From a virus (lineage: Duplodnaviria > Caudoviricetes): a stretch of DNA of 39,126 nucleotides. Below, piece by piece: positions 1 to 39,126 of this stretch. The first letter of the stretch is position 1. Each line of letters opens with the position of its first letter. Position numbers and translations under genes: made by a program. The notes below the pieces were generated by a model. It did no database searches, was not told the origin of the DNA, and worked only from the letters and a program-made list of their open reading frames with translations. Where the stretch lies: the IMG/VR virus record IMGVR_UViG_3300027963_000140, positions 1-39,126 of that record; one strand, written 5' to 3'.

Positions 1-16
1 GTCGGCAGTGGAGGCC

Positions 17-38: not shown

Positions 39-239
39 TTTCCGGCGGAAATCCAGGTGCTACACGAGTTGTAGCATTGCTACAGCCCTCGAAGATTTGG
101 TACACCCGTTATAGAGAGGGCTGCTGGGCGATTTGGAATCATGCGTACCATGCGCCGTACCAGCCCCAAAATCCATTGCGAATCCCCGTAGTAAATGAGC
201 AAGTTGCGACCCCTTGCGGGGGCATTTTCAAAGCTCATT

Positions 240-264
240 AACCCTGGATTTCCAGGGTTTTTTT
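240..264 (+). terminator. Rho-independent terminator
   Basis: AACCCTGG-ATTT-CCAGGGTT hairpin followed by a T run. Confidence 0.7.
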
Positions 265-275
265 ATTCCCCAAAG

Positions 276-305
276 CACGCTCGGACACGCTCGAACACGC
301 TCAAA
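276..305 (+). repeat. 3 x 10-bp tandem repeat (CACGCTCGGA/CACGCTCGAA/CACGCTCAAA), candidate Xis sites
   Basis: Seen directly, between the att core and the right-hand arm repeats. Confidence 0.7.
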
Positions 306-310
306 CCCGA

Positions 311-1453
311 TCAGCGCCGTACGTCGCGCCGTACTTTGACCGCGCGCCGTACATCACTCGGTTTGCTGATCGCCTTGGTCCAGTGATCGTCTGTTACCAT
401 GAGATAATGATCTTTCGCGACTCTCTTAGAATGTCCTAACCAAGCATCACACACATGAGATGCAAACTGTTCTTCCATGTCGGTGCGACATGAGGCTCTG
501 AGATTGTGCCACAGCTTTGGCCATTGCTTGAGGCCAGCCAGTAAGATCGCCGATTCGAGCCATTTTCGGAGCGTTGTTCTTGCACTAGACCTGGCTCGGC
601 TCAACACCCAAGGGGAGGAGTCAGCAGCCTCGGCAAGCTGGAGCATGTGCTCGTAGACGATCGGCACCATAGGAATCACTCGCTGGCCTGTCTTGGTCCC
701 CGTGGGGATCGTGATGCGATGCTTTTCGAAATCTATGTGAGCCCAAGTCAGGGGCAGCAGCTCGTGTGGGATCCGCAGGCCTGCAAACCTTGCGAGCACA
801 AAAGCGGCCTTGGCCTGAATCGATCCAAGCTTATCGAGCACCTTCATTGCGTCGGCCTCGGGTAGATGATAACCACGAGTCCGATCAATCTTGGCTCGCA
901 GATTAACGTTCGCGAATGGATTGGTCGCCAAAAGTCGAGAATCGACTGCGTCCTGGAGGACTTGCTTGGTCCGTTCGACGATCTTTTTTGCGTGGGCACT
1001 GGAATGCACCGATTCCATTCGCAGGGCAAAGTGTTTAGCGTCGGCAATCGTGATCTCGCTGATCAAGCGGTCTTTGAGATGATCTAAGGCGTGTTTGCGG
1101 GCAGTCCGAAAGCCTTTGATGGAACTGGGGGCAAAGTCGGCACGCTTCGCAACATAGGCATCCCAGACGACCGAGAGCAGCGGTGAGGCCTTAGGCGGCT
1201 TCCATTTGGCGAGCAATCCAGCGGCCTGGAGCTTGTCTCTGAATTTGGCATCACACAGAGAAATCCATGTTTGAATCTGCGTGTCCGGCTCGATCCCTAC
1301 AGTGTTGCTGGCCATCAGACGCTCGACGTTACGTCGGACGGTTTCAGCACCGGCCTTAGTCACCTTGCCCAAGTAGATCTGGCATCGTCGGCCAGACGGC
1401 AAGGTAACGCAACAGTACCAGCCTCGGTGCTTGTGTTTGTAGATCGAGCTCAT
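311..1453 (-). CDS. int: Tyrosine integrase
   Basis: Catalytic motifs FAGLR, KTG, WHNLRAS (HxxR), WLGHS and DHY; N-terminal arm-binding-like region; adjacent to att and xis. Confidence 0.95.
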   Translation of the reverse strand: MSSIYKHKHRGWYCCVTLPSGRRCQIYLGKVTKAGAETVRRNVERLMASNTVGIEPDTQIQTWISLCDAKFRDKLQAAGLLAKWKPPKASPLLSVVWDAYVAKRADFAPSSIKGFRTARKHALDHLKDRLISEITIADAKHFALRMESVHSSAHAKKIVERTKQVLQDAVDSRLLATNPFANVNLRAKIDRTRGYHLPEADAMKVLDKLGSIQAKAAFVLARFAGLRIPHELLPLTWAHIDFEKHRITIPTGTKTGQRVIPMVPIVYEHMLQLAEAADSSPWVLSRARSSARTTLRKWLESAILLAGLKQWPKLWHNLRASCRTDMEEQFASHVCDAWLGHSKRVAKDHYLMVTDDHWTKAISKPSDVRRAVKVRRDVRR

Positions 1454-1690
1454 TCATTCACGGCCTAAAAACCGATCGATTTCCTTGCGATCGATTCGCA
1501 GATGCCTGCCGATTTTAACGGCTCGGAGCTGCTGGGAATCGATCAAGCCATCAATCGTACGGACTGAAACACCAAGGATCTTTGCCACTTCTTCGCGAGA
1601 GTAGGCCTCGCGAGGAACGGCATTGCGAATCGCATCTTCGATCGTCTGGGTGAGCCACGAAAGATGCGTGGCCGTAGAATTGTCCGACAT
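1454..1690 (-). CDS. xis: Excisionase-family HTH protein
   Basis: YSREEVAKILGVSVRTI...LRAVKIGRHLRIDRKEIDRF is the excisionase/HTH_17 pattern; abuts int. Confidence 0.9.
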   Translation of the reverse strand: MSDNSTATHLSWLTQTIEDAIRNAVPREAYSREEVAKILGVSVRTIDGLIDSQQLRAVKIGRHLRIDRKEIDRFLGRE

Positions 1691-5763: not shown

Positions 5764-5766
5764 CTA

Positions 5767-14243: not shown

Positions 14244-14572
14244 CACAGGAAGACGTACAACAAGCGAAAGCTCGGATTCGACTGTACAAAGCCGGACGAA
14301 CAATAACGGAGGTCTATGGCCGTCACGTAAGCTATCATGATGCATACGTTTGGGACTGCAAACTCGTGGCCGATTGGTACGCATGTCATGAAGATCAAGC
14401 AGACGCAGAAAGATACCGATGGTTAAGGGAACAGCATCATGAAGACTCTACGTTGTGCGTGGTGCAAGACCCTCGGCAGGCAGTAAGACCCGGCAGATTT
14501 TGTCCGAGTCTTGAAACGTTGGACAATCTGATCGACAAGGCGATGGCAAAGCAAACAGCGGGAAAACTATGA
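14240..14572 (+). CDS. Hypothetical phage protein
   Basis: DAERYRWLR...LDNLIDKAM is a common phage accessory motif. Confidence 0.7.
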   Translation: MTQEDVQQAKARIRLYKAGRTITEVYGRHVSYHDAYVWDCKLVADWYACHEDQADAERYRWLREQHHEDSTLCVVQDPRQAVRPGRFCPSLETLDNLIDKAMAKQTAGKL

Positions 14573-14805
14573 AAAAGCTAGATTCTATCATCGTGCGTCA
14601 AGCATCAGACGATTTCTACGCGTTTAAGACAGCCAACGCAATGCAGTCTCTACCGAACGTCGAGGTTGTGTCAATTGTGTTTCAGGATCGCGAACCAATA
14701 ATGGCTCGAGAGCCAAGGGGGTTTTGGCACGTTTTTGCGAAGTTTGCGAGTGACCAAATAACAACAGATCAAATAGACAAAGCGATCGACCGCGCTCTGG
14801 CGTAA
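14569..14805 (+). CDS. Hypothetical protein
   Basis: ATGA-coupled ORF. Confidence 0.65.
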   Translation: MKKLDSIIVRQASDDFYAFKTANAMQSLPNVEVVSIVFQDREPIMAREPRGFWHVFAKFASDQITTDQIDKAIDRALA

Positions 14806-14806
14806 G

Positions 14807-14846
14807 ACCCATCACCCACTCTTCCGCCTGAGGGCCCGGAGCTCGG
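14807..14846 (+). repeat. 40-bp direct repeat, copy 1
   Basis: ACCCATCACCCACTCTTCCGCCTGAGGGCCCGGAGCTCGG; 39/40 identical to 15249-15288. Confidence 0.95.
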
Positions 14847-14857
14847 AGAAGCAAATA

Positions 14858-15292
14858 ATGGAAAAATTTGAGCCAAAAATGATGATGATGATCGGGGACG
14901 TCGGCAGCAAACGACTGGAGTTTTCCACTGTATTGTCACAAAAAGAATTCTTCGCGTTGATTCGCGAGACTAATCGGATCTTTTCGTTTGCCCTGCGAAC
15001 GTGGGACGCAGAAACAGGCGCTGCAGTGATCGAGCTTGTGCCAGGAAACGGCATGGCGTTGGTGACTACCGTGGGAGGATTGGACAACACGGAACCATCG
15101 CGCGAAAGCTCTGAAATTTGCGAAGCCCACGACCGATCAAGGCGGAAATTTTACAAAGATCTGCTACATACAATCGGTCTTTCGATCGACGAAATGCCAG
15201 TTCGCGACTCTGTGGTCGATGAGCCAGCCGAATCGGGACCGGAACAAAACCCATCACCCACTCTTCCGCCTGAGGGCCCGCAGCTCGGCTAA
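14858..15292 (+). CDS. Hypothetical protein between the direct repeats
   Basis: GGAG RBS; the 3' end runs through repeat copy 2 and overlaps the terL 3' end. Confidence 0.6.
   Translation: MEKFEPKMMMMIGDVGSKRLEFSTVLSQKEFFALIRETNRIFSFALRTWDAETGAAVIELVPGNGMALVTTVGGLDNTEPSRESSEICEAHDRSRRKFYKDLLHTIGLSIDEMPVRDSVVDEPAESGPEQNPSPTLPPEGPQLG
15249..15288 (+). repeat. 40-bp direct repeat, copy 2 (3' end of terL)
   Basis: Encodes ELRALRRKSG* of terL on the minus strand. Confidence 0.95.
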
Positions 15293-17512
15293 GGTCATCT
15301 TGCCATCGTTGGGCCGCTTGGCGATCTTCTCGACGGCTTCGACGCGCTGCTCGACGGGGGAAGGCTCGCGGGATTGATCCTGCTCGGGTCGATCCTGTCC
15401 GGATCGGTCGCTCATGCTGATCTTGCGTCGGCGTATCACTCGATCTGACTCGCCGGGGACCTTCACCCCCAGTATCGATGCACCCACCGCGGCGAGGATC
15501 GTAGAGTCCAGGAAGTGATTGTCCCGTCCTGGCCTGCATCCCCACTCGAAAAGCTCTCTGCCTTGTCCCTGGGTCTTCGTGGGGTATTCTGCCGACAGAT
15601 TGTCCGCGACCATGCGGTGACGCAGCGGGGCGGCTCGGTAGAGCCACCAAGCACCAGGCTCACCGGCATCGGTGGTCCATCGGTCCATCATGGCCGTCTT
15701 CCAACTGTTGGTGTCTACGAGGCAGTACCTCGGGGCCCTGGTCCCTCGGGTCGGTGGCATGCGCCAACCGAATCCCATGCGCTCCCCGGCTTTCTTCTTT
15801 TCTTGGTTCCAGGGGCGTTGCCTGGCGGTGACGCCCTTGCCATGGCTCGGAACCACATGCTGATGCTGCTGGCTGAATCGATAGACGACTTCACTCTGAA
15901 ACCCTGCATCGACCACCATGATCTCGGGCCGCAGCTGCGTCCCGTCGTCTCGAGTGTACGTGACAGCGAGTCGCTCGTCTCGGAGCTTGCCCAGCGCGAC
16001 CAAAAGCGACTCGGTCGAGGATCGGATTCCGGTGGCTCGTATGATGGTCCGATCAATGTCGGCGAGGGTAACGTAGTCAATGCCGGGCTCGGGCCAGATT
16101 CCATAGTCGACCACCAGGCCGGAGAAGTCGGCTCCGACACCGGCGACTGTCCACCAGAGCGAGGATCCCTGGACGTCCACTCCCAGGGTAATGTGCTCAA
16201 CCCAGTCAGGGATCTCACCGCGGCGGTGAGTTGGCAGGATTCGCAAGCAGAATTCATCGGACGTAAGGCAGCGGATTCCATCGACGGCCACAATCGATTT
16301 CTTAGGCTCGTTTTGGTACTCGGCGTCAAACGTGTCGGGATTGTCAAACCGGAGGTTCTCGGCGTGCTGAATCGCCGAGATCTCATGGGGAAACTTGCGA
16401 TGTGCCCATCCCACTTTAGACCCTGCGTCCATCGCGGCGCGGTTCGCTCGATAGAACTTGTTGGCCTTTGGGTGTTCATCGTTTCCTTCGGCGATTTCTT
16501 CGGCGCGGATGTCGAAATACTTCATCCACAATTCCCGATTGGTCGGCCACTCATAGACAAGCCTGCATCGATCGCCGTGCCATTTTGGCATAAGCTTGGT
16601 ATTGAGCATCCGGTCGGCTGCGTCGCCTTCGCGGATCACGGTTACCGCAGCAAATCCTGCGATCCGTTTCCCTGGTCCACCAAGGCCCAGTATTGCCCCA
16701 CCGATCACCTTTTCCCGCTTGGCACATTCCGGGTCTGACAATGCCGAAGTGTCGGTCTGCGGGTCATTGACGAGCACGAAACCAGGCCGGATCGTCTTGC
16801 CATCGGCGAGTACCTTTTGCATCCCGCGGACTCTACCGAGGATCCCAGTGCAGCGAATGATTGCTCCAGATGCCTGCGATCCCTCAATGGTCGGGAAAAT
16901 CAGTTCCTTGCGTCGCCAACCGATGAGCGTCCTTTTGCCCTGAGTGGTCTGCGCGTTGCCTCGCTGGGTGATTCCTTCTAGGCAACGGATCGGGAAAGCG
17001 ATCTCCGGGAAGTCCTCGAGAAGCAGCGAGTTGGTTTCCCACTCGATTTTGATCGCATCGAGCGATTCCTCGGCGGCTCCCTCGTCGGCCTCGACGAGGA
17101 CTCCGAATCGCTGATGGCCATAGGACAGCACCCAGAGCATGGCTCGCAAAAGAATCGTCGTCTTGCCAGATCCCCGAGGCATGGCGATGCATTTCAGACC
17201 GCCGTTGATCGCTCGCTCTTCGATGTCTTTTAGGATCCGCTCATGGTCCTCGCTGAACGGCAGCGGAAAAGCCTCTTTAAAGTACGTGAGCAAATACTTT
17301 TTAAGGTTTAGCCGACAGGACTCTCGTCGCTTAGGATTGACGATCGCAGGAATCGGGCCGATGTCTCGGGCCTCGGTCGATTCCTCTTTGGCTTTCGAGG
17401 CCTGGCGTTTGCGGTGCTTGGCATAGGAGTCCTTGGGACGCTCCGCGCCAGACTCGTTGTAGTCGTCGTCGGGATCCGCGGGAGCTGCTGTTGGCGGTCG
17501 CTTCTTGGTCAT
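15254..17512 (-). CDS. terL: Terminase large subunit, lambda gpA-type
   Basis: Walker A PRGSGKTT; nuclease motifs GVDVQ, VVDAGF and DNHFLD; start 17512 overlaps the upstream stop. Confidence 0.9.
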   Translation of the reverse strand: MTKKRPPTAAPADPDDDYNESGAERPKDSYAKHRKRQASKAKEESTEARDIGPIPAIVNPKRRESCRLNLKKYLLTYFKEAFPLPFSEDHERILKDIEERAINGGLKCIAMPRGSGKTTILLRAMLWVLSYGHQRFGVLVEADEGAAEESLDAIKIEWETNSLLLEDFPEIAFPIRCLEGITQRGNAQTTQGKRTLIGWRRKELIFPTIEGSQASGAIIRCTGILGRVRGMQKVLADGKTIRPGFVLVNDPQTDTSALSDPECAKREKVIGGAILGLGGPGKRIAGFAAVTVIREGDAADRMLNTKLMPKWHGDRCRLVYEWPTNRELWMKYFDIRAEEIAEGNDEHPKANKFYRANRAAMDAGSKVGWAHRKFPHEISAIQHAENLRFDNPDTFDAEYQNEPKKSIVAVDGIRCLTSDEFCLRILPTHRRGEIPDWVEHITLGVDVQGSSLWWTVAGVGADFSGLVVDYGIWPEPGIDYVTLADIDRTIIRATGIRSSTESLLVALGKLRDERLAVTYTRDDGTQLRPEIMVVDAGFQSEVVYRFSQQHQHVVPSHGKGVTARQRPWNQEKKKAGERMGFGWRMPPTRGTRAPRYCLVDTNSWKTAMMDRWTTDAGEPGAWWLYRAAPLRHRMVADNLSAEYPTKTQGQGRELFEWGCRPGRDNHFLDSTILAAVGASILGVKVPGESDRVIRRRKISMSDRSGQDRPEQDQSREPSPVEQRVEAVEKIAKRPNDGKMTLAELRALRRKSG

Positions 17513-17739
17513 CAGTATCGGCTTGGCCTTTGGCGTGAGATGCCATGTGCGGGAGCACATTTACAGGTGCGGTAATACCAAGTGATCCGCTCTCGAGTGG
17601 AAGCGGCCTTGTACCGAGCTCCACAGCATGGGCATGACGGCGCGGTCGTCCGAGGTTGCCGACGGTATCTTCCATCAGGCTTCGACGTGTGCGGCATCAG
17701 GTGTCGCATCTCGGCATTTAGTTTGGCGAAAACGACCAT
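17512..17739 (-). CDS. Small zinc-ribbon protein (Ogr/Delta-like)
   Basis: PSCPCCG...STRERITWYYRTCKC; start uncertain. Confidence 0.55.
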   Translation of the reverse strand: MVVFAKLNAEMRHLMPHTSKPDGRYRRQPRTTAPSCPCCGARYKAASTRERITWYYRTCKCAPAHGISRQRPSRY

Positions 17740-18260
17740 AGTGCTGGATCCTCCTGGCTGGTTCTAATTGCTGTCCCGTCAAACAACGACGCTCCATCTT
17801 GGGGCTGAGTCTTGGTTGCGACCCCCAGTTCAACCAGACGCTCGGACAGTGTCTGGTGCTCGCTGATCCACAAGTGGCCAGGCTGCTTGGACTGCGGCTT
17901 GAGGTTGCGGAACCATTCCCGGTCGTGCTGTGGCGTGGGGATCAAGACACGAGTCCACTCAGGGCACTGCGACAGTATCTTTCGAGTCACCTCAAACGCT
18001 CTCACTCCAGCGGGGTTGGGCACTTCCTTATCATAGAACAAGACTGGCTTTGGTGCGGATCGCACTTTCCACTCTGGTGATTTCTCGTCGGTCCCTAGTC
18101 GGCGGTGCTCTGTCTTGAGCGATGTCGGCGGGGTGAAACAATCGATTAGCACCAGATCGATCTCGCTGTCATCTGGCAACATGATCCGAATCACGTTGGG
18201 GGACATGGCAAACATGATCTTCGCGCGAGTCATCAGTCCTAACAGTCTCGGGCATCGCAT
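17718..18260 (-). CDS. Degenerate staphylococcal-nuclease-like protein
   Basis: LIDCFTP...GVRAFEVTRKIL...GHLWI...TLSERLVELGVA follows the SNase layout; the DGDT and GR catalytic motifs are missing. Confidence 0.55.
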   Translation of the reverse strand: MRCPRLLGLMTRAKIMFAMSPNVIRIMLPDDSEIDLVLIDCFTPPTSLKTEHRRLGTDEKSPEWKVRSAPKPVLFYDKEVPNPAGVRAFEVTRKILSQCPEWTRVLIPTPQHDREWFRNLKPQSKQPGHLWISEHQTLSERLVELGVATKTQPQDGASLFDGTAIRTSQEDPALWSFSPN

Positions 18261-18263
18261 GGT

Positions 18264-19454
18264 TCACTTCCTTGTATAGATTGGATTCTTGATGGCCTCA
18301 AGTCGCTCGATCATGGTTTTGATTGCTTCGGTTTTCTTGTCCAAGCCGGACAAGTGAACGAACTCGGCACCAAACAGTCGAAGCGTGAAATGCGGGTTCC
18401 AAACTTGCAAATTGCGACTGACTCGCAACGGATGCAGCAGCGGCCTGTGTCGCATTAGGTTCATCCCGACAACGATCTGCTCGGCGACGTGGAACGTCGG
18501 GATCGGCAGCTTGGGAGGCGTCCAGACGCTTGCTCCCTCGCGATCGCAAAACACTACGCCAGAATTGTACGACTGGCCCCAGTGTTTGTTCTTGAGCGTG
18601 GGCCCGATGCATTGATCGACCTTGTCCCAGCAGCCAGCGACCCACGTCGATGACTGCAAATCGTCGAGCTCGTTGTAGATCGCGACATAATTGTCGAGAC
18701 CGTCCGTCGAGCAAAGCTCCTGCGGCTCATAGCCAGAGAACAAGTCTTTTGCTAGACGAGTGACCAGGACGTCGGCGTCGAGGTAAAGCGTCTGATCGTA
18801 GGCTTTGGCGAATTGATGGACGCGAAACTTTTCCAGTCCCCACCAGCCTTGAGTGGTATTCTGCAGGACGACGAAATCGGCTTTGCAGTCGGCTGCATAG
18901 GCTCGCATCGGGCCCTCGGTGTATCGCAGCCACTCCCGAGCCTTTCCAGTCGCAACAGTGATGACAAGACGCCGACCGCCCGAGATGGTATCATTGACCG
19001 GACAAAACCAAGCCACTTGCCCGGCTGCGGCAATCCTCGACCAGATCTCGCGGGCGCGGGCAAGTGGAACTTGTGGGTGGGACTCATCGACATCGAGTCG
19101 AGAGTTGACATGGTTGTGACAATTGACCGACCAGTCGAAAAATGAGTCTGGGGACGCGAACACAGCGTCGGTCATTGGAAACATTTCCACGGTTGCATGC
19201 CAGTGGACCGCACAATCGCAGCTCGGAGGCAAGCTCCATCGGAGCCACTCGATCACCCAAGCTCGGGCTTTGGCTGGGTCCCATGTATTGGCGTTCCGAA
19301 ACGAGTACAGATGCAGTGCTGGCCAACCTGTTTCCCGTTGCTCGGGCTCGAAGTATCGATCCTCGCCAAACTCGTGGACAGTGCCGGTGAAACCGTCGAT
19401 GGTCTGCGTAGTGAACGGTCCAGGATGAATCGGATGCCCTAGTAGATCGATCAT
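18264..19454 (-). CDS. Erv1/Alr sulfhydryl-oxidase-like domain fused to a GT-A (GT8-like) glycosyltransferase
   Basis: GWPALH...LPPSCDCAVHW...FFDWSVNCHNHVNSRL, then W..EK, LYLDADV (DxD), YNSGV, EQ and FVHLSG. Confidence 0.78.
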   Translation of the reverse strand: MIDLLGHPIHPGPFTTQTIDGFTGTVHEFGEDRYFEPEQRETGWPALHLYSFRNANTWDPAKARAWVIEWLRWSLPPSCDCAVHWHATVEMFPMTDAVFASPDSFFDWSVNCHNHVNSRLDVDESHPQVPLARAREIWSRIAAAGQVAWFCPVNDTISGGRRLVITVATGKAREWLRYTEGPMRAYAADCKADFVVLQNTTQGWWGLEKFRVHQFAKAYDQTLYLDADVLVTRLAKDLFSGYEPQELCSTDGLDNYVAIYNELDDLQSSTWVAGCWDKVDQCIGPTLKNKHWGQSYNSGVVFCDREGASVWTPPKLPIPTFHVAEQIVVGMNLMRHRPLLHPLRVSRNLQVWNPHFTLRLFGAEFVHLSGLDKKTEAIKTMIERLEAIKNPIYTRK

Positions 19455-20557
19455 TGGAGCTCCACTAGGTATTCGGTTGGCAACGTCGGATCCGGAGCGG
19501 ATCCAGGCGTGACGACTCCCGAGTCGGACGATCCGGTCAACGTGTTTGTAAAGCTGGTGTGGTCAATGATGTTGGCATAGCTTGGACAATACGTCGGTTG
19601 ATCGGCACACGAAATGGATGTGCATGCATCGACAGATCCAGTGTCGAAACCAGTGTTCGGCGCGAGATCGTCGGGAGGATCGCAAGTGAACGCTGGCGGT
19701 GATCCAAAAGTGGGACCAAAGGCACTGATGCCCGCAGCGCACTTGGGGCCGCAGCTCAGGCCGACTGCTCCGGTCGGCCCAAAGGTCATTGGAAACTCAA
19801 GCGTGTCAACCGATCGCCGAAAGACTTGGCGAAACTGATGCATTGTGACCGACAGTCCGGCGGCGTTGAATGCCGGTGGAGATCCGACCGGCCAAGCTCC
19901 ACTGGGCCCTGATCCGTCGGAGCACGGATAAGACTCCCCGCAGAATGAGCCCGACGAATTGACTGTGATGTTCTGGCCAGCGCTGATCTGCGTGGCCCAG
20001 GTCAGACCGATCTCCCCTTCAATCACCAGTGCGAGCCGGTATCGGCATTGATTGGGCTCGTCGCATCCGTAGCCAGGCTGGGTGCGACTTATGTAGAGTT
20101 TCGCTTGGGTGATGCCAGCGATCATACGCCACCCGAGCACGCAGGCCCGAGCGTATTCAACGGTTAAACTGCAAACGTTGGTCGGGCCGATTTTATAGCA
20201 CAGGCCAGAACTGGCGTTGGTGCAGACTCGTGTTCGACTGACGGTCGAGGAGTAAGTGCGGCTGTAACGTCGCCACTTGTAGACACCATTGGTTTCGCTG
20301 CGATCGTTCGGAGCAGCTCTCGGACCGGCAGCGATGCTCGAGCAGCAGCTATTGACTCGCGTGAAATTGGGTGAGCAAATCTGGTTGGCATCGCAAATCA
20401 CATACGGCAGCAGGCCGGTGCTTGGCGTGACCTTGAAGCTCCACGACCGGTCCGATAGCTTAGGATGCCGACATGCGTCGCGACACTTGTAGCACTTTTT
20501 TTGACTGCCCTCGGCATCGCACCAGGTGCAAGTCATCGCGTCGATTACTGTCGGCAT
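19451..20557 (-). CDS. Cys-rich putative tail tip / receptor-binding protein
   Basis: About 23 Cys in 368 aa, S/T/G/P-rich, no signal peptide, in the distal tail position. Confidence 0.65.
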   Translation of the reverse strand: MPTVIDAMTCTWCDAEGSQKKCYKCRDACRHPKLSDRSWSFKVTPSTGLLPYVICDANQICSPNFTRVNSCCSSIAAGPRAAPNDRSETNGVYKWRRYSRTYSSTVSRTRVCTNASSGLCYKIGPTNVCSLTVEYARACVLGWRMIAGITQAKLYISRTQPGYGCDEPNQCRYRLALVIEGEIGLTWATQISAGQNITVNSSGSFCGESYPCSDGSGPSGAWPVGSPPAFNAAGLSVTMHQFRQVFRRSVDTLEFPMTFGPTGAVGLSCGPKCAAGISAFGPTFGSPPAFTCDPPDDLAPNTGFDTGSVDACTSISCADQPTYCPSYANIIDHTSFTNTLTGSSDSGVVTPGSAPDPTLPTEYLVELQ

Positions 20558-31111: not shown

Positions 31112-31657
31112 TTACTTCTTGCGAGGACGCTTGGGAGGCTTGGGGCGGATCACATCGGCGCTGATTGCCTCTGCCTCTGGCTCGTCTGATTCGTCAGGCT
31201 CGTCAGACTCGTCAGCGGGCGAGGGTTGAGGATCTGCCGGGGCTTTTGCGGGATCTTCCGACACTTCCTCACCCCATTCGCGTTGGATGAGGCACTCAGC
31301 ACTGATGGGACTGGAGTCGGTGTCAAAAACATGTCCCGCAGGGAATGTCTGGCCATCAAACGAGACGGCTTGTCGAAACTTCTTGCGAGGACGCTTGGGA
31401 GGCTTGGGGCGGATCACATCGGCGCTGATTGCCTCTGCCTCTGGCTCGTCTGATTCGTCAGGCTCGTCAGACTCGTCAGCGGGCGAGGGTTGAGGATCTG
31501 CCGGGGCTTTTGCGGGATCTTCCGACACTTCCTCACCCCATTCGCGTTGGATGAGGCACTCAGCACTGATGGGACTGGAGTCGGTGTCAAAAACATGTCC
31601 CGCAGGGAATGTCTGGCCATCAAACGAGACGGCTTGTCGAAGTCGGATTTTTGGCAT
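31112..31657 (-). CDS. Small head-associated protein with an internal 88-aa duplication
   Basis: Follows the capsid gene; two identical 88-aa units. Confidence 0.7.
   Translation of the reverse strand: MPKIRLRQAVSFDGQTFPAGHVFDTDSSPISAECLIQREWGEEVSEDPAKAPADPQPSPADESDEPDESDEPEAEAISADVIRPKPPKRPRKKFRQAVSFDGQTFPAGHVFDTDSSPISAECLIQREWGEEVSEDPAKAPADPQPSPADESDEPDESDEPEAEAISADVIRPKPPKRPRKK
31114..31641. repeat. Perfect 2 x 264-bp tandem duplication
   Basis: 31114-31377 and 31378-31641 appear identical. Confidence 0.95.
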
Positions 31658-31736: not shown

Positions 31737-33962
31737 CTAGGCTGCGTAGCGGGTGAATCCTCGCCAATCGAGGAAGTACGCTCCGATGTAGTGGCGGACA
31801 TCGATCACGATGCCAAACTCACCGCCGACCAAAGTCTCGGTGCGGACGACAGGCACTCGGCCAGCACCTTGGAGGTAAGCGACTTCGATCGTTCGAGCGG
31901 CCTTCGAGACGCTGTAGTAGGTCGTTGCCGATCCGGCTAGAGCAGCACCGGTCACAGGGTGAACCATGCCGTTGCTGAACCGTGGCTCGCTACGTGGCGT
32001 GATGCCGTACTTCTTGATCGGGTTGATTTCACCAGACCCGCTGTCATTCGACAGGTTGGCCGAGTAGCAAAGCTGGATCGCGGTGTCCAGGAGCTCGGGC
32101 GGAACCAACAGATCCGAGACAGGCAGATTGAGCGTTGCGTCGCCATCCTTGCGTTTGGCGTGCAAGCTGATCATCTCGCTCAGCGTGGCTCGTGCCAGAG
32201 CCTTGCCAGTCGCCGTGTTGCCTTCGGTGGAGTTGAAGGCGGCGCGACCAGTTTGGAGCAGCGTCGGGTTGCTGAGGATGACAGCGGCGACCATGTCCGG
32301 ACGTAGTCGTCCAGCAGCTTGGCCGAAGTCCCTTGGGGAATCTTTGAGCTTGGAGAAGTTGTCGCCCATCAAGTCGGCTTCGTCGATCTTCAGTTGCTCG
32401 CTGAATCGAGACACTTGCGACTTCTCGGTCAAGGTGCGGCGCGATCCGTGGACAGCAGATCCACCGACGGGGTGCAGCTTCAGGCTGGGGGCGGCTTGCA
32501 TTCGATTGCGGTTATGTTCTTCGAGGTCGGGATTTTCATCCTCAGTACACCAACCTTGGCTAAAATCCTCGACTTCGGCGTACGATTCGAGCATCTTCGC
32601 TCCGATCGTCGCACCGAAGAGAACAGCCACGGTACCACTGGAGAAAGCGGCTTGAAGCATGTCCATTCGTGCGACGGGGACATCGACCCCGCGAGCCTGC
32701 AAACCGAGTCGGCAAGCGTCAACCAGGGAGCTTTCCGAGTATCGATGCGCGTCGTCCATCGTGCGTTGGCGGATCGGATCGTTGATGCCAGCTTGCAGCC
32801 AACCCGGTAGCTTGGCTTTCACATGCCGATTCGTAAATGTTGGAGAGTCAAGATTCATTCCGGCTCGCAGCATGAGACCACCTTGGATCGCTCCGAGGTC
32901 GATCGACGACTGACTGGCTCGGGAATGGATCGCAGGGCCTCGTGGTCGAGAGTCCCGGGTGGCTTCGAGGTCTTGATGACGGCGGGCCAGCAGCTCGGTC
33001 TGATCGCCGGTCAAGCCAGCCTCAATCGCGTGAGCCGCCAGATCGACATTCTTGCCAGCGACCATCACGGTCGGGTTGCCGAACTTAGCACAGAGCGATG
33101 TGACTTCGCCGACTCGCTTGGTTTCAGCAGCCATTTGCGAGCGGTAGGCGGTCAGATCCAGACTGCCAGCAGCGGTCAGGTCAGACGAGGCGGAAGAAGC
33201 AGCAGCGGTCGCAGGCTTGGCCATAGGTGGCTCCGTGGGTTGAGAAGCGGTTGCAGTGGGAGGTTGCTGTGCGGGGTCAGCAGGGGCGGACGCATCCATG
33301 GGAGGCTCGATGCTATCGGCATAGGAGACTTGCAGGGCGGCTTTGGCCTCGGGCGAAAGAGTCGCAGGATCGAATCCGAGAGAGGTGCAGTATTGTTCAA
33401 AAGTTGGCATGTTTGTTGTGGCCGAGGCGGCAATAGAGACTGAGGATTCTGGGTCGCCTGGAATCGTTACCAGGGAGACCTCTTTGAGTTGCGATCGTTT
33501 CACGACGAGGACCGGCCCCTCGAAAGTGCGTCCATTGCACTGGAGGGTCTGACCCTGAGGAATCGTGGAATAGGTGAGGATCTTCACGCCGACCGATGGT
33601 CGCCAAGGAAATCCGTTTCTTGCTCCCGAGACAATCTCCTGCTGATCCACCGATGGGACCGAGAACACTCCGGTGACGGAGAGCTGGGTTCCGTCGTTGG
33701 ACACAGCGGTCAAGTGACCGACAGGCCTGGATTCGTCGTGGTCTCGATGCACTGGTCCGACCGGTGCGTCAAGGCCTGCTAGGTCAATCACCACCGGGCC
33801 GTTCCACTGGATTGCAAGCTTGGGATGCATCACACCCCCGGTATAGGCGATCCCACTAAAACTGGGCAGCGCGTCGGGGGTGTTAGGATCTGCGGCTTGC
33901 AACTCGATGGAGCTGCCACTGGTGCGGAGTTCCAAGTTGCGGGCCCGGGTCGATTTGCTCAT
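31737..33962 (-). CDS. Prohead protease-scaffold-major capsid fusion (Mu gpT-like capsid domain)
   Basis: AYTGG, RDHD, GFPWRPSVG and LKEVSLV protease motifs; Pro/Ala linker; LLVPPEL, IEVAYLQG and DWRG capsid motifs. Confidence 0.92.
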   Translation of the reverse strand: MSKSTRARNLELRTSGSSIELQAADPNTPDALPSFSGIAYTGGVMHPKLAIQWNGPVVIDLAGLDAPVGPVHRDHDESRPVGHLTAVSNDGTQLSVTGVFSVPSVDQQEIVSGARNGFPWRPSVGVKILTYSTIPQGQTLQCNGRTFEGPVLVVKRSQLKEVSLVTIPGDPESSVSIAASATTNMPTFEQYCTSLGFDPATLSPEAKAALQVSYADSIEPPMDASAPADPAQQPPTATASQPTEPPMAKPATAAASSASSDLTAAGSLDLTAYRSQMAAETKRVGEVTSLCAKFGNPTVMVAGKNVDLAAHAIEAGLTGDQTELLARRHQDLEATRDSRPRGPAIHSRASQSSIDLGAIQGGLMLRAGMNLDSPTFTNRHVKAKLPGWLQAGINDPIRQRTMDDAHRYSESSLVDACRLGLQARGVDVPVARMDMLQAAFSSGTVAVLFGATIGAKMLESYAEVEDFSQGWCTEDENPDLEEHNRNRMQAAPSLKLHPVGGSAVHGSRRTLTEKSQVSRFSEQLKIDEADLMGDNFSKLKDSPRDFGQAAGRLRPDMVAAVILSNPTLLQTGRAAFNSTEGNTATGKALARATLSEMISLHAKRKDGDATLNLPVSDLLVPPELLDTAIQLCYSANLSNDSGSGEINPIKKYGITPRSEPRFSNGMVHPVTGAALAGSATTYYSVSKAARTIEVAYLQGAGRVPVVRTETLVGGEFGIVIDVRHYIGAYFLDWRGFTRYAA

Positions 33963-34007
33963 GTGGACGAGACTACCACTCGCCCTCAAAAAACCGTTCA
34001 TCGAGAG

Positions 34008-35051
34008 TTACAAATCAGCCTTAGCCCAGTCGGAGTCTGGAATGATCGCATAAGAGGTCATCGCGACTTTCTCGGAATTGCCGACCCACTTCGAAGCGGT
34101 TGCCAGTCCGAAGGCGGTGATCAGTTCCGTCTCGCGGGTGGCTCGCATCGAGTGCCATGGAACCCTCCACGGCTCGATGCCAGCTTTGCGAACTACGTCT
34201 TGAAATCGATTGGTGAGTCCAGAGTGAGACAGGCCAGAGAGAGTTGGCAGCAGCTCGACGCCTGGTTCAGGCAATTGGGCAGCGATCTCGCGGAAGAGCG
34301 GGATCTCGCGGACCACTCCTCGCTTGGTGTCGGTGATCTTGATACGCTTGGACACGCGGTCGATCGAAGCCTCGGAAAAGTCGCGGATCTCGCTGTTGAT
34401 CCGAAGGCCACCGAATCGAGACAGGACAATCACCAGCCGCAGCTCGGGATCGTCGCAGGCCTGGAGGACATGCTCCATGGTCTCCACCGAAACGAATTGC
34501 TTCTCTCGCACCGAGACCGTGGTCTTGAGTCGCTTGGCAGGATTGGCAACGATCCATCGATTGTCTTCGCACCAGTGAAAGAAGGCCTTCCAGTCCTTGG
34601 CGATCTTTCCCCGCGTGGAAGCACCTTGATCGAGCGCATCATAGACGGTGGCGATTTCCTCGGGCGAAACTCCATCGATTCGCCGATCACCGCAGGCATC
34701 CGACAGCCAGGCCAGGGAGCGACCAACCGATTCGGCAGTCGATGTGGCAAGCATGTCTCGCTTAGCGTTGAGATACTCGTCGATGGCAGTCCGGACGGTG
34801 CGGATGGATCCGGTGATGCAAGTGAGCTTCGATTTGATTTCCGGATCGAGCCGATCGAGCCAAAGGGCCGTTTGCCTTGGGATCGGTAGGTCTGCGGTCT
34901 GGGCGGCGATGATCTCGTCGACGTGTCGCTGGATGGCGATCGCTTCGGGCTCGGTGATGCGTCCAAGCCAAATGGAGCGACGTCCGGCAGCGGTGTAAAC
35001 TCGAAGGCGATAGCCTTGCCGAGTCTTGCTCTCGTGCGTCAGCGAGCTCAC
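34008..35051 (-). CDS. Second tyrosine recombinase
   Basis: RFGGLR, DTKRG, WHSMRAT, WVGNS and TSY; same layout as int 311-1453; ATGA-coupled to the portal. Confidence 0.9.
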   Translation of the reverse strand: MSSLTHESKTRQGYRLRVYTAAGRRSIWLGRITEPEAIAIQRHVDEIIAAQTADLPIPRQTALWLDRLDPEIKSKLTCITGSIRTVRTAIDEYLNAKRDMLATSTAESVGRSLAWLSDACGDRRIDGVSPEEIATVYDALDQGASTRGKIAKDWKAFFHWCEDNRWIVANPAKRLKTTVSVREKQFVSVETMEHVLQACDDPELRLVIVLSRFGGLRINSEIRDFSEASIDRVSKRIKITDTKRGVVREIPLFREIAAQLPEPGVELLPTLSGLSHSGLTNRFQDVVRKAGIEPWRVPWHSMRATRETELITAFGLATASKWVGNSEKVAMTSYAIIPDSDWAKADL

Positions 35052-36751
35052 GCTGGTTGCTCTTCGTACTCGGCCAACAAATTGTTGATCGTGCGTTCCT
35101 TCATGCCGAGTGATTCGAGGAACACCCGTGCGCGAGATGTGGTCCAGACGCCTTGCTCGATCTTGTTCAGCGTGTCATCGATGGCTCTGGTGTTGCGAGT
35201 GAGTTGCAAGCGGGACATGTTGGCAAATTCACCTGTCGGTGCGGGTTGGCTTGCATCTGGCTCGGCAGCGCCTGTACCTTGGGCCGCAGCTCCGGGCGCA
35301 CCAGAAGCTCCGGGAGCACCAGGTGCAGCGCCTGCAGGAGCCGCTGGGATGTCAGGATTGACCCAGCCTTCCTCGATGAGCTGCTGCGCGTGAGCCTCGG
35401 GATCAAGGTTTTGCTCGATCAAGTATTGTTGCCGAGTTTTGAGACCGGCCCGGATCAGTTCGATGTTCACATCGGCGATTTCCGCAGGGTTGACGTCGCG
35501 CTGTGGTGGCCATCGCCAAACCTTTGGAACCTCATCCATTGGTTCTATCGCGGGCAGGTAGCCGTCCATCATGAAGGCTTCATCGAGCCACCAACCGAAG
35601 ATTCGATCTAGGGCTTCGATTTCCCATTGAGTACGCTCGATGGCGTTGGCTTCATAGTAGGTCTGGTGGTCCAGTCGTCCCGAGGAATAGTTGTACGAGC
35701 TTGAGTCGGCCAAAGCTTTGTTTTTTGGCATGTGTACGGTCCGAGCAATCTCGCCGAGAATGGCATTGCGAAACTCGGTATAGGTCGTCGTCGGTTGCTT
35801 CGGATCGAATTGCACCATTTCCCAGCCTTTGGGCAGGGACGTCATCAGTCCTCGATCGATCTGAACAAAGTCGAATGGGTCGATGTCGTCGATCCCATCG
35901 GACGCAGAATCAAAAGCATTGGACTGGGTCTTGAGGATTGCAGAGAAGTCCGCAGCATTCTCGGCAGCAGTGATTACGGCCAGAGTGTAGCGTCGTAGCA
36001 TCGCGAACAGGGGCAGCGCTGGTGTAAGCTCGGGAATTCCACGCATCTGGCCAGGTCGCTCGGCGCGGAACAGATGAATGATGTCGTCTGGGTCTACGTC
36101 TGTTTTTTCCAAGGCGTGAAGCGGCCAGCGGTCCCCTGGGTGACCCTTGAGGATGTGATACTTGATCGGATTGCCAAAGTCGTCGAACTCGATTCCATCG
36201 ATCTTGTTTGGTAAGCCATCGGCAAAGAAAGGCGTGGCGAGCTGGTCGGACTCAATCACTCGAAAGTCCAGCTTGACATCGTTCTTGGATCGCGGATTGT
36301 TTCCCTTGAGCAGGATTGTCTCGCCGTCGATTACCTTGGAGATGCGAGCGGTTCGAAGCTTGCCCGCAAGCCGGACATCCTTGCACCACTTCCGCCACTT
36401 CTGTTCGATCATCCGAGACGCAGACGCATCGGGCAGCATCACCTGGAGACTCGGGCCGGTGGAGATCGTGTCGTTGGCCAGGGTCAGAACGATCCCCTTG
36501 GCAAACGAATTATTCTCGAGGCACTCGTACCGAGATCGCTCTCGAAGTGTCTTGCGCACCGATACCGAGTTCGCAGCAGCAGCGGAGAGATTGTCGGCGT
36601 ATCGCCAGTGCTTTTGGGTTTCTACCGTGTTGGCCGCGGCGTCGTACGATGCCGACAGCGAGTCGATTCGCTTGGCTCGATCCTGGATCCGGCGAGCAGC
36701 GGCCAGAGCTTTGGTGTCGATTGGCTTGCCAAATTGGTCGAGCAGCATCAT
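35048..36751 (-). CDS. Portal protein, lambda family
   Basis: LRERSRYE, DGIEFDDFGNP, RPGQMRGIP and YNYSSGRLD; start 36751 or 36748. Confidence 0.95.
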   Translation of the reverse strand: MMLLDQFGKPIDTKALAAARRIQDRAKRIDSLSASYDAAANTVETQKHWRYADNLSAAAANSVSVRKTLRERSRYECLENNSFAKGIVLTLANDTISTGPSLQVMLPDASASRMIEQKWRKWCKDVRLAGKLRTARISKVIDGETILLKGNNPRSKNDVKLDFRVIESDQLATPFFADGLPNKIDGIEFDDFGNPIKYHILKGHPGDRWPLHALEKTDVDPDDIIHLFRAERPGQMRGIPELTPALPLFAMLRRYTLAVITAAENAADFSAILKTQSNAFDSASDGIDDIDPFDFVQIDRGLMTSLPKGWEMVQFDPKQPTTTYTEFRNAILGEIARTVHMPKNKALADSSSYNYSSGRLDHQTYYEANAIERTQWEIEALDRIFGWWLDEAFMMDGYLPAIEPMDEVPKVWRWPPQRDVNPAEIADVNIELIRAGLKTRQQYLIEQNLDPEAHAQQLIEEGWVNPDIPAAPAGAAPGAPGASGAPGAAAQGTGAAEPDASQPAPTGEFANMSRLQLTRNTRAIDDTLNKIEQGVWTTSRARVFLESLGMKERTINNLLAEYEEQPA

Positions 36752-37156: not shown

Positions 37157-37425
37157 TTGGTTTTCTTGGCAGTAGCCTGGAGGGATGCGAGTCGATCGAG
37201 AGCTGCGGCCCGACGCCTGTCAGCCTCGTCTTGCCGGATCACCGAGACGATCTCAGCGATCTCAGATTCCAACACTGCATCACGATCAGTCGAGACCGAC
37301 GAAGGCGACGACAATGCAGCAAAGATCGATGGCTGCGAAGCGGCTTTAGGTGGCCTCTTTGGGTTCCACCAGATGGCAGCAAGCAGGAGAGCGACTAACA
37401 CAATTAGCAGTAAAAACAGGGTCAT
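37153..37425 (-). CDS. Single-pass membrane protein
   Basis: MTLFLLLIVLVALLLAAIWW; ATGA-coupled. Confidence 0.7.
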   Translation of the reverse strand: MTLFLLLIVLVALLLAAIWWNPKRPPKAASQPSIFAALSSPSSVSTDRDAVLESEIAEIVSVIRQDEADRRRAAALDRLASLQATAKKTK

Positions 37426-38411
37426 GAGCGGATCACCTTGAGTGCGACGACAAACAGCAGGACTAAGAAAGCGATGGCACACAACACAGCTAGGATTGCT
37501 TCGCCGGGATTCCAGATCCAATACAGCAGGGACTGGATCGGATCAGGATTTCTTGCTCTGAGATTGGGGAAAAGCTTTTCTCGATCAGGGTTCAATAAAG
37601 GCACGCGGCCAGGTGGGCAATTGCCATCAGGGCAGTTCGAATCGAACTCTTGGACGCTTTGGTCAGGGTTGATTGGATCAGTGCGAACAGTCTGCTGCTG
37701 AATCTGAGTAGACTCTTTGAGGGCTGTATAGAGTCCCGACGCAGTTGCCGGCAGCGACGAGGCTCCCGCGACGTAGACGTGTCCCCCACGGGAATCGGCA
37801 AACACAACTGCCGGAAATTGCTCGGCTGGGATGACGCCAGCCCACCTTGCCTTGTAAAGCGGGTTGTCTTTGGTGTACGCCTGGAAATTGACGTTCTTTC
37901 GCAGATCCGAAAGCTGGGGATCTTTATTAACCCAGTCCAGGAGTCTTTGCGACGCTTGGTCAGTTCCGACGAAGACAGCCAGCGAATACTTTGCGGCCCA
38001 GGGAGTGGAAGTCACTGTGACCTGTTGCCGAGGCGGCTGCGGCGCTGGTGCGCTGGCCTGCGTGATTGGTTGGGCGTATTCCACGAAACGAGTAAACCCA
38101 GGCGATCGGACTTGATCGCATGGTGGACAGTAGACCTCTTGTCGCTTTACCTCTCGGGCGGCTCGTTCGTCGACGGGGACTGTGTTTAGCGGTGCATTTT
38201 TGAGCGTGTCGTAGCTCACTCCGCCGGGGGTGTAGGATTGCTCGGCTGGTTGCTGGATTCCAAGTGATTGCTCGATTCTCGGAGCAATTCGCTCGCCAAT
38301 GACCACGCACAGAGCAGAGCACAGAGCCAGCACCACCAGACCGAAAGACAAGACGATTTTGACACGTTGTCCCCCCTCATTAGGGCATTGATTGCAGTTT
38401 ACCATTTCCAT
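37422..38411 (-). CDS. Membrane-anchored protein with thioredoxin-like region and several Cys motifs
   Basis: N- and C-terminal TM helices; CNQC, YCPPC and CPDGNCP; FPAVVFADSRG resembles the Trx cis-Pro strand. Confidence 0.6.
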   Translation of the reverse strand: MEMVNCNQCPNEGGQRVKIVLSFGLVVLALCSALCVVIGERIAPRIEQSLGIQQPAEQSYTPGGVSYDTLKNAPLNTVPVDERAAREVKRQEVYCPPCDQVRSPGFTRFVEYAQPITQASAPAPQPPRQQVTVTSTPWAAKYSLAVFVGTDQASQRLLDWVNKDPQLSDLRKNVNFQAYTKDNPLYKARWAGVIPAEQFPAVVFADSRGGHVYVAGASSLPATASGLYTALKESTQIQQQTVRTDPINPDQSVQEFDSNCPDGNCPPGRVPLLNPDREKLFPNLRARNPDPIQSLLYWIWNPGEAILAVLCAIAFLVLLFVVALKVIRS

Positions 38412-39013
38412 TGATCCTCTACCGCTTCGTATGATTTAAAGATTGGTGGGCTCGGAGGGTCATACAGCGTGGTGAGCGCAAATCCCCCAAAGGATGCCCA
38501 CTGTCGATGAAATTCAGATCGTTCGACGAACTCGTAACGATCGATCTTGTTGTTATCCAAAATGCAGGCGTAGACTCTGCCGTCAGTCCCTTTGGCCCAG
38601 CCCACGAAGTTGCAACAGTGCGAAGGCTTCCACCAAAGCAGAGCCCCGCGTCTTGCATTGTGCGCATCGTCGAGTAATTGGAGATTGGCTCGTTCGGTAT
38701 AGGCGTAAGGAACCTTGGCCGCATCAAGTCGACGTCTTAGTTGGTCGGTCCATTCACCGCCCGAGTACTTTGTTCTCCACCACTTTGCCAGCTCCAGTTG
38801 GTTCTGCCAATGCAGCATGGATGACAGGCTGGCGTGAACACAACTCCCCTCGTTCTGCGGGCTCAGCCAGTTTTTTTGGCGGAGTTCGATTGGGGGATTG
38901 ATTGCTGGAGTCTCAGCCCTCGGAGCGGGCAGAGCTCGGTAGCTTGCCGTGGGTGCGCAGCCGATCGCCAGCAGCAAAAAGAGCATGATTAGTTTCGCAT
39001 GATTCGATGCCAT
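38399..39013 (-). CDS. Lipoprotein, papain/C39-like cysteine peptidase
   Basis: Lipobox LLLAIGC; GSCVHAS (Cys), SHCCNFVG (His) and ILDNN. Confidence 0.7.
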   Translation of the reverse strand: MASNHAKLIMLFLLLAIGCAPTASYRALPAPRAETPAINPPIELRQKNWLSPQNEGSCVHASLSSMLHWQNQLELAKWWRTKYSGGEWTDQLRRRLDAAKVPYAYTERANLQLLDDAHNARRGALLWWKPSHCCNFVGWAKGTDGRVYACILDNNKIDRYEFVERSEFHRQWASFGGFALTTLYDPPSPPIFKSYEAVEDQWKW

Positions 39014-39126
39014 TTTTCGCGAGTTCGGTTTGGTTCTGTGATCCGATGATAGGACCACCGTACAGCACGAGCTCGAAAAAACGAAAAACAACAGTTACAA
39101 AAAGAAAGTGTGTCTTACTTGTTGAT

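What the first reader, a model, noticed from the sequence alone, without database searches (positions are those of the whole stretch)
34008..35051. Second tyrosine recombinase built into the head operon between portal and protease-capsid
Seen: a full-length paralogue of the att-linked integrase whose start overlaps the portal stop and whose stop lies 45 nt before the likely capsid start. There is no room for its own promoter or an attP, and no flanking repeats are visible. R, K, HxxR and Y are kept, but GH is replaced by GN. Established: portal-protease-capsid order is normally uninterrupted except for minor head genes. Inference: a late-expressed recombinase acting in concatemer/dimer resolution, as a packaged pilot recombinase, in alternative integration, or as a domesticated DNA-binding packaging factor (no terS is evident).
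Basis: partly seen in the sequence, partly recalled or inferred. Interest (0 to 1): 0.8.

Follow-up and report, generated by a model that had tools for sequence, protein, structure and literature searches.

The report
Second phage recombinase among head genes
A group of freshwater phages that likely infect Planctomycetes keeps an intact, conserved second DNA-recombining enzyme gene between the portal and capsid genes; it is predicted to be an active but optional enzyme that likely works on phage DNA late in infection, and its target site was not found.

Summary
The ORF (34008-35051, minus) is real: a 347-aa, three-domain, lambda-Int-like tyrosine recombinase ('rec2'), 26% identical to the att-linked integrase. 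It overlaps the portal stop and ends 45 nt before the capsid start. It is neither recent nor decaying: 46 of 47 portal-found close relatives carry it in this slot, all 47 sampled frames are open, and dN/dS is about 0.11. It tracks the head genes even where the integrase and attP were swapped. GN for GH is not a defect: it is the norm in tRNA-linked Planctomycete integrases. Against a built-in packaging role: one close relative has deleted it cleanly, one has it beside cos, sister phages lack it, a 33% sister subfamily sits in early regions, and the slot often holds other cargo. The 45-nt gap holds a likely capsid promoter, so rec2 ends the portal unit. No target site was found, and the 14807/15249 repeats are not conserved as a pair. 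Best reading: an active, accessory, att-less recombinase acting in trans on lytic-cycle phage DNA (0.4). Two-integrase phages are known; a conserved one in the head module was not found in print.

The parts
34008..35051 (-). rec2: 347-aa tyrosine recombinase with N-terminal arm-binding-like, core-binding and catalytic domains; R217, K243, H300, R303, N325, Y334
35048..36751 (-). lambda-family portal; its TGA overlaps the rec2 GTG (likely translational coupling)
33963..34013 (-). promoter-like element before the capsid gene (TTGTAAC, T tract, extended -10-like hexamer 7 nt before ATG); contains the rec2 stop; kept in L276, which lost rec2
   Evidence: promoter function is inferred
31737..33962 (-). 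fused head protease-major capsid gene (likely start 33962)
39050..39100 (-). second copy of the promoter-like element, heading the cos-proximal unit that ends with portal and rec2
39101..39126 (-). one physical end (cos); conserved ACACACTTTCTT motif; a 13-nt cohesive segment is missing from both contig ends
1..45 (-). other physical end, with conserved GGGTCCTTCC at 22-31 (cosQ-like; likeness to lambda cosQ is recalled)
141..352 (.). attP of int1: GTACGGCGC arm-like repeats on both sides of a core (212-264) made of a tRNA 3' end plus hairpin; one contig of run X3 shares 212-264 and runs on into other DNA at both sides
311..1453 (-). int1, the att-linked integrase (GH type); arm-like repeats overlap its 3' end
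1454..1690 (-). excisionase-like HTH_17 protein directly upstream of int1
15254..17560 (-). GpA-type large terminase at the far end of the structural genes; lacks the ~70-aa N-terminal extension seen in distant Planctomycete phages

Best explanation
rec2 is an intact second tyrosine recombinase, kept under purifying selection in a clade of cos-ended phages and lacking an att site of its own, that is likely made with the portal unit and likely acts in trans as an active but optional DNA breaking-rejoining enzyme on replicating phage DNA. Shown: intact frame, full catalytic set, selection, inheritance with the head genes, independence from int1/attP swaps, and at least one loss. Inferred: (1) transcription from the cos-proximal promoter-like element with translation coupled to portal; (2) catalytic activity, from the invariant active site; (3) a substrate other than the phage's own attP. 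The most likely job is to join or resolve genome circles and recombination intermediates during lytic growth (for example fusing monomer circles into the multi-cos DNA that lambda-type terminases package), through a short or relaxed target. Its place between portal and capsid is best read as a cargo slot at the end of a transcription unit, not as a structural role.
For: Full-length fold match to lambda Int (pLDDT 89.5; 1z1b E 3e-10, 352 columns). R, K, R, N and Y invariant in 24 of 24 rec2-clade proteins, H in 23 of 24. 47 of 47 sampled frames open; median dN/dS 0.11 over 371 pairs, catalytic domain 0.13. Present in 46 of 47 readable slots among portal-found relatives with portal >=60%, 0 of 64 at 37-54%. 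Pairwise distances track capsid (rho 0.95) and portal (0.91) better than int1 (0.76). In G005, int1 is 30% identical with other arm repeats and another tRNA core, while rec2 is 74% identical like the capsid, and its arm-domain and core-binding segments are nearly unchanged. Both genes are present in the two relatives rated 100% complete (G004, G005), in G006 and in G001. Optional: deletion in L276, relocation in L103. lambda-type cos packaging uses concatemers (PMC4669245, passages). A tyrosine recombinase with relaxed specificity is known (Int-pTN3, PMC5495485, abstract).
Against: No target site was found: the only non-coding 11-mer shared by the window and 4 of 5 relatives lies at cos, and that motif also occurs in rec2-less phages. 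No joint or strand switch attributable to rec2 in four laid runs (contigs only). G003 carries rec2 and also an exonuclease-VIII-like gene, so rec2 does not simply replace homologous recombination. The most conserved part is the arm-binding-like domain, which suggests a specific DNA site or partner rather than relaxed activity. The 33% sister subfamily sits in early regions, so late timing may be incidental. Expression was not observed.
Confidence: 0.4

Rival explanations
1. A second integrase: rec2 integrates or excises the phage at a different host site, or is a backup excision enzyme, using a partner site that was not recognised.
For: It belongs to the family of tRNA-linked Planctomycete integrases (42 of 49 checked genome loci have a tRNA within 300 nt downstream) and keeps the arm-binding-like domain. 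Sister-subfamily genes in G016 and G017 have a short direct repeat just downstream, like arm sites. In L103 it lies about 150 nt from a tRNA 3' fragment. Two-integrase phages are known (PMC4982277, PMC13097055, PMC9584220, passages).
Against: No arm repeats or core next to rec2 in the window clade. It does not co-vary with int1 or attP swaps. Position at the end of the portal unit is poor timing for establishing lysogeny. In L103, cos lies between rec2 and the tRNA fragment and another 445-aa integrase points at the same site from the other side. No rec2-clade prophage in GTDB representatives (0 of 18 genomes).
Confidence: 0.22
2. A conflict gene: rec2 acts on other elements in the cell (tRNA-linked islands, satellites or rival prophages with same-family integrases), excising or scrambling them or poisoning their integrases during the lytic cycle.
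For: Planctomycete genomes carry many same-family GN-type integrases at tRNAs. rec2 is optional and changes position. It sits in a slot that also takes up DNA methyltransferases and other cargo. No phage target was found.
Against: Slow, clock-like evolution with the head genes rather than the fast turnover expected of arms-race genes. No direct evidence.
Confidence: 0.15
3. A domesticated DNA-binding protein, either an MrpR-like regulator of the two late promoter-like elements or a stand-in for the missing small terminase.
For: No terS detected in the window, and its terL lacks the N-terminal extension of distant relatives. Both rec2 positions in the clade are near packaging features. The arm-like domain is the most conserved part. 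MrpR is a precedent (PMC10516654, passages; 8a0a and SroF 9rd5 among the fold hits).
Against: MrpR has lost most catalytic residues, while rec2 keeps all of them. L276 lacks rec2 but keeps the capsid promoter element. L280 and L286 show neither a terS-like hit nor rec2 between cos and the portal (both are short contigs). The cos motif occurs in six rec2-less distant phages.
Confidence: 0.13
4. A virion-packaged pilot recombinase injected with the DNA.
For: Position next to portal, where lambda-like phages keep minor head proteins; L077 and L089 carry a long insert there with a weak minor-head hit.
Against: Cohesive ends make recombinational circularisation unnecessary. No extra domain or extension that could serve as a packaging signal: rec2 is shorter than int1. 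Lost in L276.
Confidence: 0.05
5. A selfish or hitch-hiking remnant with no benefit to the phage.
For: One clean loss (L276); no target found.
Against: dN/dS 0.11, 47 of 47 open frames and invariant catalytic residues across saturated synonymous divergence; vertical inheritance with head genes.
Confidence: 0.05

Closest known systems
lambda Int-type three-domain tyrosine integrases, in particular the tRNA-linked GN-type integrases of Planctomycetota islands and prophages
   Same: Domain layout and fold, catalytic set including N at the H/W position, 25-37% identity.
   Different: rec2 forms its own clade (support 1.0; score gap 286 to 233 bits among full-length hits), is shorter, has no adjacent att or excisionase, and lies in a structural unit.
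Actinophages with two tyrosine integrases (Gordonia phages Bowser and Oregano, Arthrobacter cluster FF)
   Same: A second full-length integrase of unknown role, no attP found for it in Bowser (PMC4982277, PMC9584220, PMC13097055; passages read).
   Different: Where the passages give a position (Oregano, cluster FF) both genes lie in the central lysogeny region; here the second gene is at the end of the portal unit and is inherited with the head genes, not with the integrase.
MrpR/YopR of SPbeta and SroF of phi3T (tyrosine-recombinase fold used as repressor)
   Same: A phage tyrosine-recombinase fold away from att; weak fold matches.
   Different: MrpR lacks most catalytic residues and has no recombinase activity (PMC10516654, passages); rec2 keeps all six.
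Int-pTN3 of Thermococcus (relaxed-specificity tyrosine recombinase) and P1 Cre (multimer resolution; recalled)
   Same: Models for a tyrosine recombinase acting on replicon topology rather than on integration (PMC5495485, abstract).
   Different: Both are unrelated in sequence; Cre has a defined lox site and no arm domain (recalled). Neither activity was shown for rec2.

Membership tests
Tyrosine recombinase superfamily | Catalytic R, K, H-x-x-R, H/W and Y in order | tested here: met
   R217, K243, H300, R303, Y334; N325 aligns with the H of LGH in XerA and is N in 71 of 71 chromosomal relatives (biased because one search pattern contained GNS)
Tyrosine recombinase superfamily | Core-binding plus catalytic fold | tested here: met
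   PF00589 itself scores below its cut-off (20.4 vs 27.1 bits)
Tyrosine recombinase superfamily | 3'-phosphotyrosine cleavage and strand exchange | not testable with these tools
   needs biochemistry
lambda-type phage integrase | N-terminal arm-binding domain | tested here: met
   three-strand sheet plus helix in residues 2-52 of the model; full-length alignment to lambda Int; no Pfam hit for residues 1-80
lambda-type phage integrase | Adjacent attP with core and arm repeats, and an excisionase | tested here: not met
   none beside rec2; present beside int1
Cre/Xer-type multimer resolvase | A conserved palindromic lox/dif-like site on the replicon | tested here: inconclusive
   none found among shared 11-mers or repeats; a short or degenerate site would be missed. 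A TGCTAC-N7-GTAGCA dyad between attP and cos is replaced in several relatives
Cre/Xer-type multimer resolvase | No arm-binding domain | tested here: not met
   rec2 has one
MrpR-like domesticated repressor | Loss of most catalytic residues | tested here: not met
   versus PMC10516654 Table 3 passage
Small terminase substitute | Essential and universal in the clade; presence tied to absence of terS | tested here: not met
   L276 deletion; L280 and L286 lack both; contigs are fragments
Invertase/shufflon recombinase | Invertible segments with inverted repeats nearby | tested here: not met
   head genes colinear in all relatives; no strand-change joints; no long inverted pair flanking a segment near rec2
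Integron integrase | Cassette array with repeated attC sites at one attI position | tested here: not met
   cargo beside rec2 differs in both junctions and has no repeated boundary site

The most novel reading that the evidence does not exclude
rec2 defines a phage-specific subfamily of att-less, active tyrosine recombinases that a cos phage makes together with its portal in order to fuse genome circles into packageable multimers: a site-specific recombinase coupled to head assembly, doing the job that Red/Gam and rolling-circle replication do in lambda.
Probability: 0.2. Interest if true: 0.8.

Novelty: new variant of a known kind. Interest (0 to 1): 0.5.

Why it matters
Second integrases in phage genomes are a recurring, unexplained annotation. 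This clade gives a clean natural experiment: dozens of genomes, a swapped primary integrase, one relocation and one deletion. These already argue against decay, against partnership with the phage's own attP and against an essential packaging role. If rec2 proves active on lytic DNA, it would add a new use of tyrosine recombinases and possibly a compact 347-aa enzyme with unusual specificity. The work also outlines the genome ends, att site and likely late promoters of a Planctomycete phage group with no close relative in the INPHARED phage set (best portal match 26%).

Tried and rejected
GN as a sign of inactivation: rejected (int1 of G005 is also GN). 14807/15249 repeats as substrate: the second copy is the 3' end of terL; the pattern is single-copy in G006 and unmatched in G003, G004, G005 and G007, and 14200-15253 is replaced in the strain of runs X3 and X4. 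Own attP or arm repeats beside rec2: none. Hidden DNA site inside rec2: no peak of synonymous conservation except the stop region. rec2 binding the cos motif in place of terS: the motif predates rec2. rec2 replacing a Red-like system: none detected in the window, G004 or G005, but G003 has an exonuclease-VIII-like gene (52 of 58 listed ORFs were scanned). Prophage copies in hosts: none at clade level in GTDB or in 18 genomes around G018. Identifying the attB tRNA by a 13-nt pattern: 6 of 18 genomes matched, but the 4 loci examined held no tRNA, so these are chance hits. Context of deeper homologues P0263, P0039 and P0034: no new loci of their own. Expression: no RNA holder listed, which is no evidence either way. 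Rfam: only the tRNA at 5692. Earlier findings of this scan: nothing. Literature searches with no relevant hit for a recombinase in a head operon or for this phage group. The cosQ sequence was not confirmed in print, so that likeness is recalled. No complex prediction was run because no binding is claimed. Supplements of the papers were not read; they are unlikely to bear on the claims.

Full report
Observation. The window is one 39,126-nt virus record. The ORF at 34008-35051 (minus, GTG, 347 aa) overlaps the portal stop by 4 nt and ends 45 nt before the likely capsid ATG at 33962. The portal is lambda-family and the downstream gene is a fused protease-capsid. The protein ('rec2') is 26% identical to the integrase at 311-1453 ('int1') over its whole length. 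AlphaFold2 on a 35-row alignment gave pLDDT 89.5. The best solved match is full-length lambda Int (E 3e-10, 352 columns), and viral matches are all integrases where named. Homologues outside the clade are mostly Planctomycetota integrases, so the host is likely a Planctomycete. The four runs holding most of the region are freshwater metagenomes, three of them possible sources of this DNA.

Genome frame. The window is a full linear chromosome cut at cos. Two near-identical contigs read through the junction and show 13 extra nt between 1 and 39126. Contigs L002, L004, L016, L035, L042, L052, L054, L082 and L106 start at the same nucleotide just after this segment, while L039 starts with it. Unitigs of runs X1, X2 and X3 stop at 1 and at 39126; X3's left contig has 64 differences, so it is another strain. 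A 3' overhang lost in library preparation would explain this (inference). Reading round the circle: int1, attP (arm-like repeats flanking a tRNA 3' end, core 212-264, shared with a foreign contig in X3), cos, a unit of six genes ending in portal, then rec2, capsid, tail genes and terL last. A TTGTAAC-N13-T-tract-(-10-like) element occurs at exactly two places in each of the window, G003, G004 and G005: beside cos and before the capsid. G001 and G002 have no exact match. I read these as late promoters (inferred), which makes rec2 the last gene of the portal unit; its stop codon lies inside the second element.

Catalytic status. In 24 rec2-clade proteins, R217, K243, R303, G324, N325 and Y334 are invariant and H300 is kept in 23. 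N at the H/W position also occurs in 71 of 71 full-length chromosomal relatives (of 80 loci; biased, since one of two search patterns held GNS). 42 of the 49 such loci I scanned (of 80, chosen for longer flanks) have a tRNA within 300 nt downstream, the layout of working integrases. The att-linked int1 of G005 is also GN. GN is therefore a family trait.

Age and selection. Among 124 loci found with portal queries alone (duplicate contigs merged; 13 had no readable slot), 46 of 47 with portal identity >=60% carry rec2 right after the portal, and 0 of 64 at 37-54% do. A profile search of 62 loci (L276, L279-L339) found no recombinase of this family. Counting all loci, including those found with rec2, gives 55 of 57. 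The one positive among 65 loci below 60% there is probably L091, where only a short portal fragment is visible. All 47 coding sequences sampled (window plus 46 hand-picked loci) are open. Median dN/dS (Nei-Gojobori, own script; 371 pairs with dS 0.05-1.2) is 0.11, maximum 0.46, against 0.07 for portal, 0.16 for capsid and 0.08 for int1. By domain it is 0.07 (arm), 0.09 (core-binding) and 0.13 (catalytic). On a FastTree tree of 102 sequences, the rec2 clade (support 1.0) is separate from int1 and from the chromosomal integrases. It is small, about ten clusters at 50% identity above a score gap. rec2 distances follow capsid (rho 0.95) and portal (0.91) more than int1 (0.76, only 13 rows). In G005, int1 (30%), its arm repeats and its tRNA core are different, but rec2 is 74% identical like the capsid and its DNA-facing segments barely differ. 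rec2 is therefore unlikely to be a dedicated partner of the phage's own attP.

Results against a built-in head function. (1) L276, about 90% identical in flanking DNA to L081 and L085, has no rec2. The junction is a 3-nt microhomology, and the last rec2 codons remain fused in frame to the portal, so this is a secondary deletion; the capsid promoter element is intact. The contig is 5.9 kb (15% complete), so viability and a copy elsewhere are unknown. (2) In L103/G002 a 46% rec2 lies on the opposite strand directly beside cos, and a Dam-type methyltransferase fills the portal-capsid slot. A 445-aa integrase of another family points at the tRNA fragment from the far side and may or may not belong to the same element. 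(3) Methyltransferases and other cargo often sit beside rec2 (L014, L016, L093, L077, L081 and others), and sister phages L279-L287 hold other small genes there. (4) A sister subfamily (33%) lies among early genes of two distant phages, G016 and G017; G017 has a separate integrase at its end. (5) No terS was detected in the window, and its terL lacks the N-terminal extension and the small upstream ORF found in 31 of 62 distant loci. Calling these Nu1-like is from recall, and PHROGs did not match them. But L280 and L286 start at the cos motif and show neither that ORF nor rec2 before the portal, and the cos motif is present in six rec2-less distant phages. The lack of terS is real as far as these tools see, but is not tied to rec2.

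Target. None was found. Of the 34 11-mers shared by the window and at least 4 of 5 relatives, the only clearly non-coding one is at cos. The 14807/15249 pair is not conserved. Four laid runs show no inversion or deletion joint at rec2 apart from one 21-nt side match, likely foreign (contigs only).

Mechanism. What is shown is an old, selected, catalytically complete, att-less and occasionally dispensable recombinase. I commit to an active accessory enzyme working in trans on lytic-cycle phage DNA, most likely joining or resolving genome circles (0.4). lambda-type terminases process concatemers (PMC4669245, passages), and relaxed-specificity tyrosine recombination has a precedent (PMC5495485, abstract). 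Timing, activity and substrate are all inferred, and G003 has both rec2 and an exonuclease-VIII-like gene, so rec2 is not a simple Red substitute. Rivals: second integrase (0.22), conflict gene acting on other elements (0.15), DNA-binding regulator or packaging factor (0.13), virion pilot (0.05), remnant (0.05).

Comparison and novelty. Phages and archaeal viruses with two tyrosine recombinases are in print (passages of PMC4982277, PMC9584220, PMC13097055, PMC13612827). The second gene's role is left open in the passages read, and in Oregano and cluster FF it lies in the lysogeny region. Repressors with this fold have lost the active site (PMC10516654, passages). PMC5861418 was seen as abstract and outline only and is not used. 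Searches for a recombinase between portal and capsid found nothing relevant, and INPHARED holds no close relative. rec2 is a member of the tyrosine recombinase superfamily with lambda-Int architecture, but fails the membership tests for att-linked integrase, MrpR-like repressor, invertase and integron integrase. Verdict: a real, undescribed subfamily in an unusual and conserved place, less 'built in' than first thought; a new variant of a known kind, interest 0.5.

Noticed in passing
window 1-45 and 39101-39126; L002, L004, L016, L035, L042, L052, L054, L082, L039: Defined cos ends with a 13-nt segment missing from both contig ends, as expected of a 3' overhang, although the terminase is of the lambda GpA type, whose known ends are 5' overhangs (PMC4669245). 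L039 begins with the 13 nt.
   Followed up: partly
window 15254-17560: terL is the last gene of the structural region, about 21 kb from the cos-proximal end, with no terS detected; sister phages L279-L288 keep terL before the portal.
   Followed up: partly
window 33963-34013 and 39050-39100: Two copies of a conserved promoter-like element (TTGTAAC about 50 nt before the start codon); likely leaderless late promoters with an upstream activator site.
   Followed up: partly
window 17512-17706 and 17718-18260: A small Cys4 zinc-finger ORF (Ogr-like by eye, recalled) and a 180-aa ORF (nuclease-like by eye), neither with a family hit. The pair precedes terL here but lies inverted beside cos in G001 and G002. 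The zinc finger is a candidate late activator.
   Followed up: partly
L263:211-1290 (G001) and L346:5652-6704 (G016): A further tyrosine recombinase in the early region of two Planctomycete phages that looks like an integron integrase (label by eye; PHROGs and Pfam say only integrase). L028 and L048 carry an attC-like remnant (recalled likeness) in the cargo between attP and cos.
   Followed up: no
window 31114-31641: Perfect 264-nt tandem duplication in the gene after the capsid; doubled depth in runs X1 and X2, single copy in X3, X4 and relatives.
   Followed up: partly
window 38399-39091 and 37422-38411: The first two genes after cos encode a lipoprotein-like protein with a peptidase-like C/H pattern and a membrane protein (labels by eye, no family hit). 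They are conserved across the clade and also found after the head genes of distant phages (L289, L303, L318).
   Followed up: no
window 13319-13693: Phage-encoded RF-1-domain (ArfB-like) peptide release factor (PF00472, E 3e-17).
   Followed up: no
window 5692-5764; L005, L012, L038, L050: A tRNA gene at the same early position whose anticodon differs between relatives (Thr-TGT, Thr-GGT, Cys-ACA, undetermined).
   Followed up: no
L077, L079, L083-L085, L087, L088, L091, L092, downstream of rec2: A ~50-nt element with inverted ends between the rec2 stop and the capsid promoter element, partly duplicated in L083 and L085; possibly a terminator or operator.
   Followed up: no
L103:11713-12665: Panacea-domain antitoxin and RelE-like toxin pair between the tRNA fragment and a 445-aa integrase.
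   Followed up: no
window 18264-20557: An Erv1/Alr-like domain protein (PF04777, weak) next to a very cysteine-rich protein at the end of the tail genes; possibly a phage disulfide-forming system.
   Followed up: no
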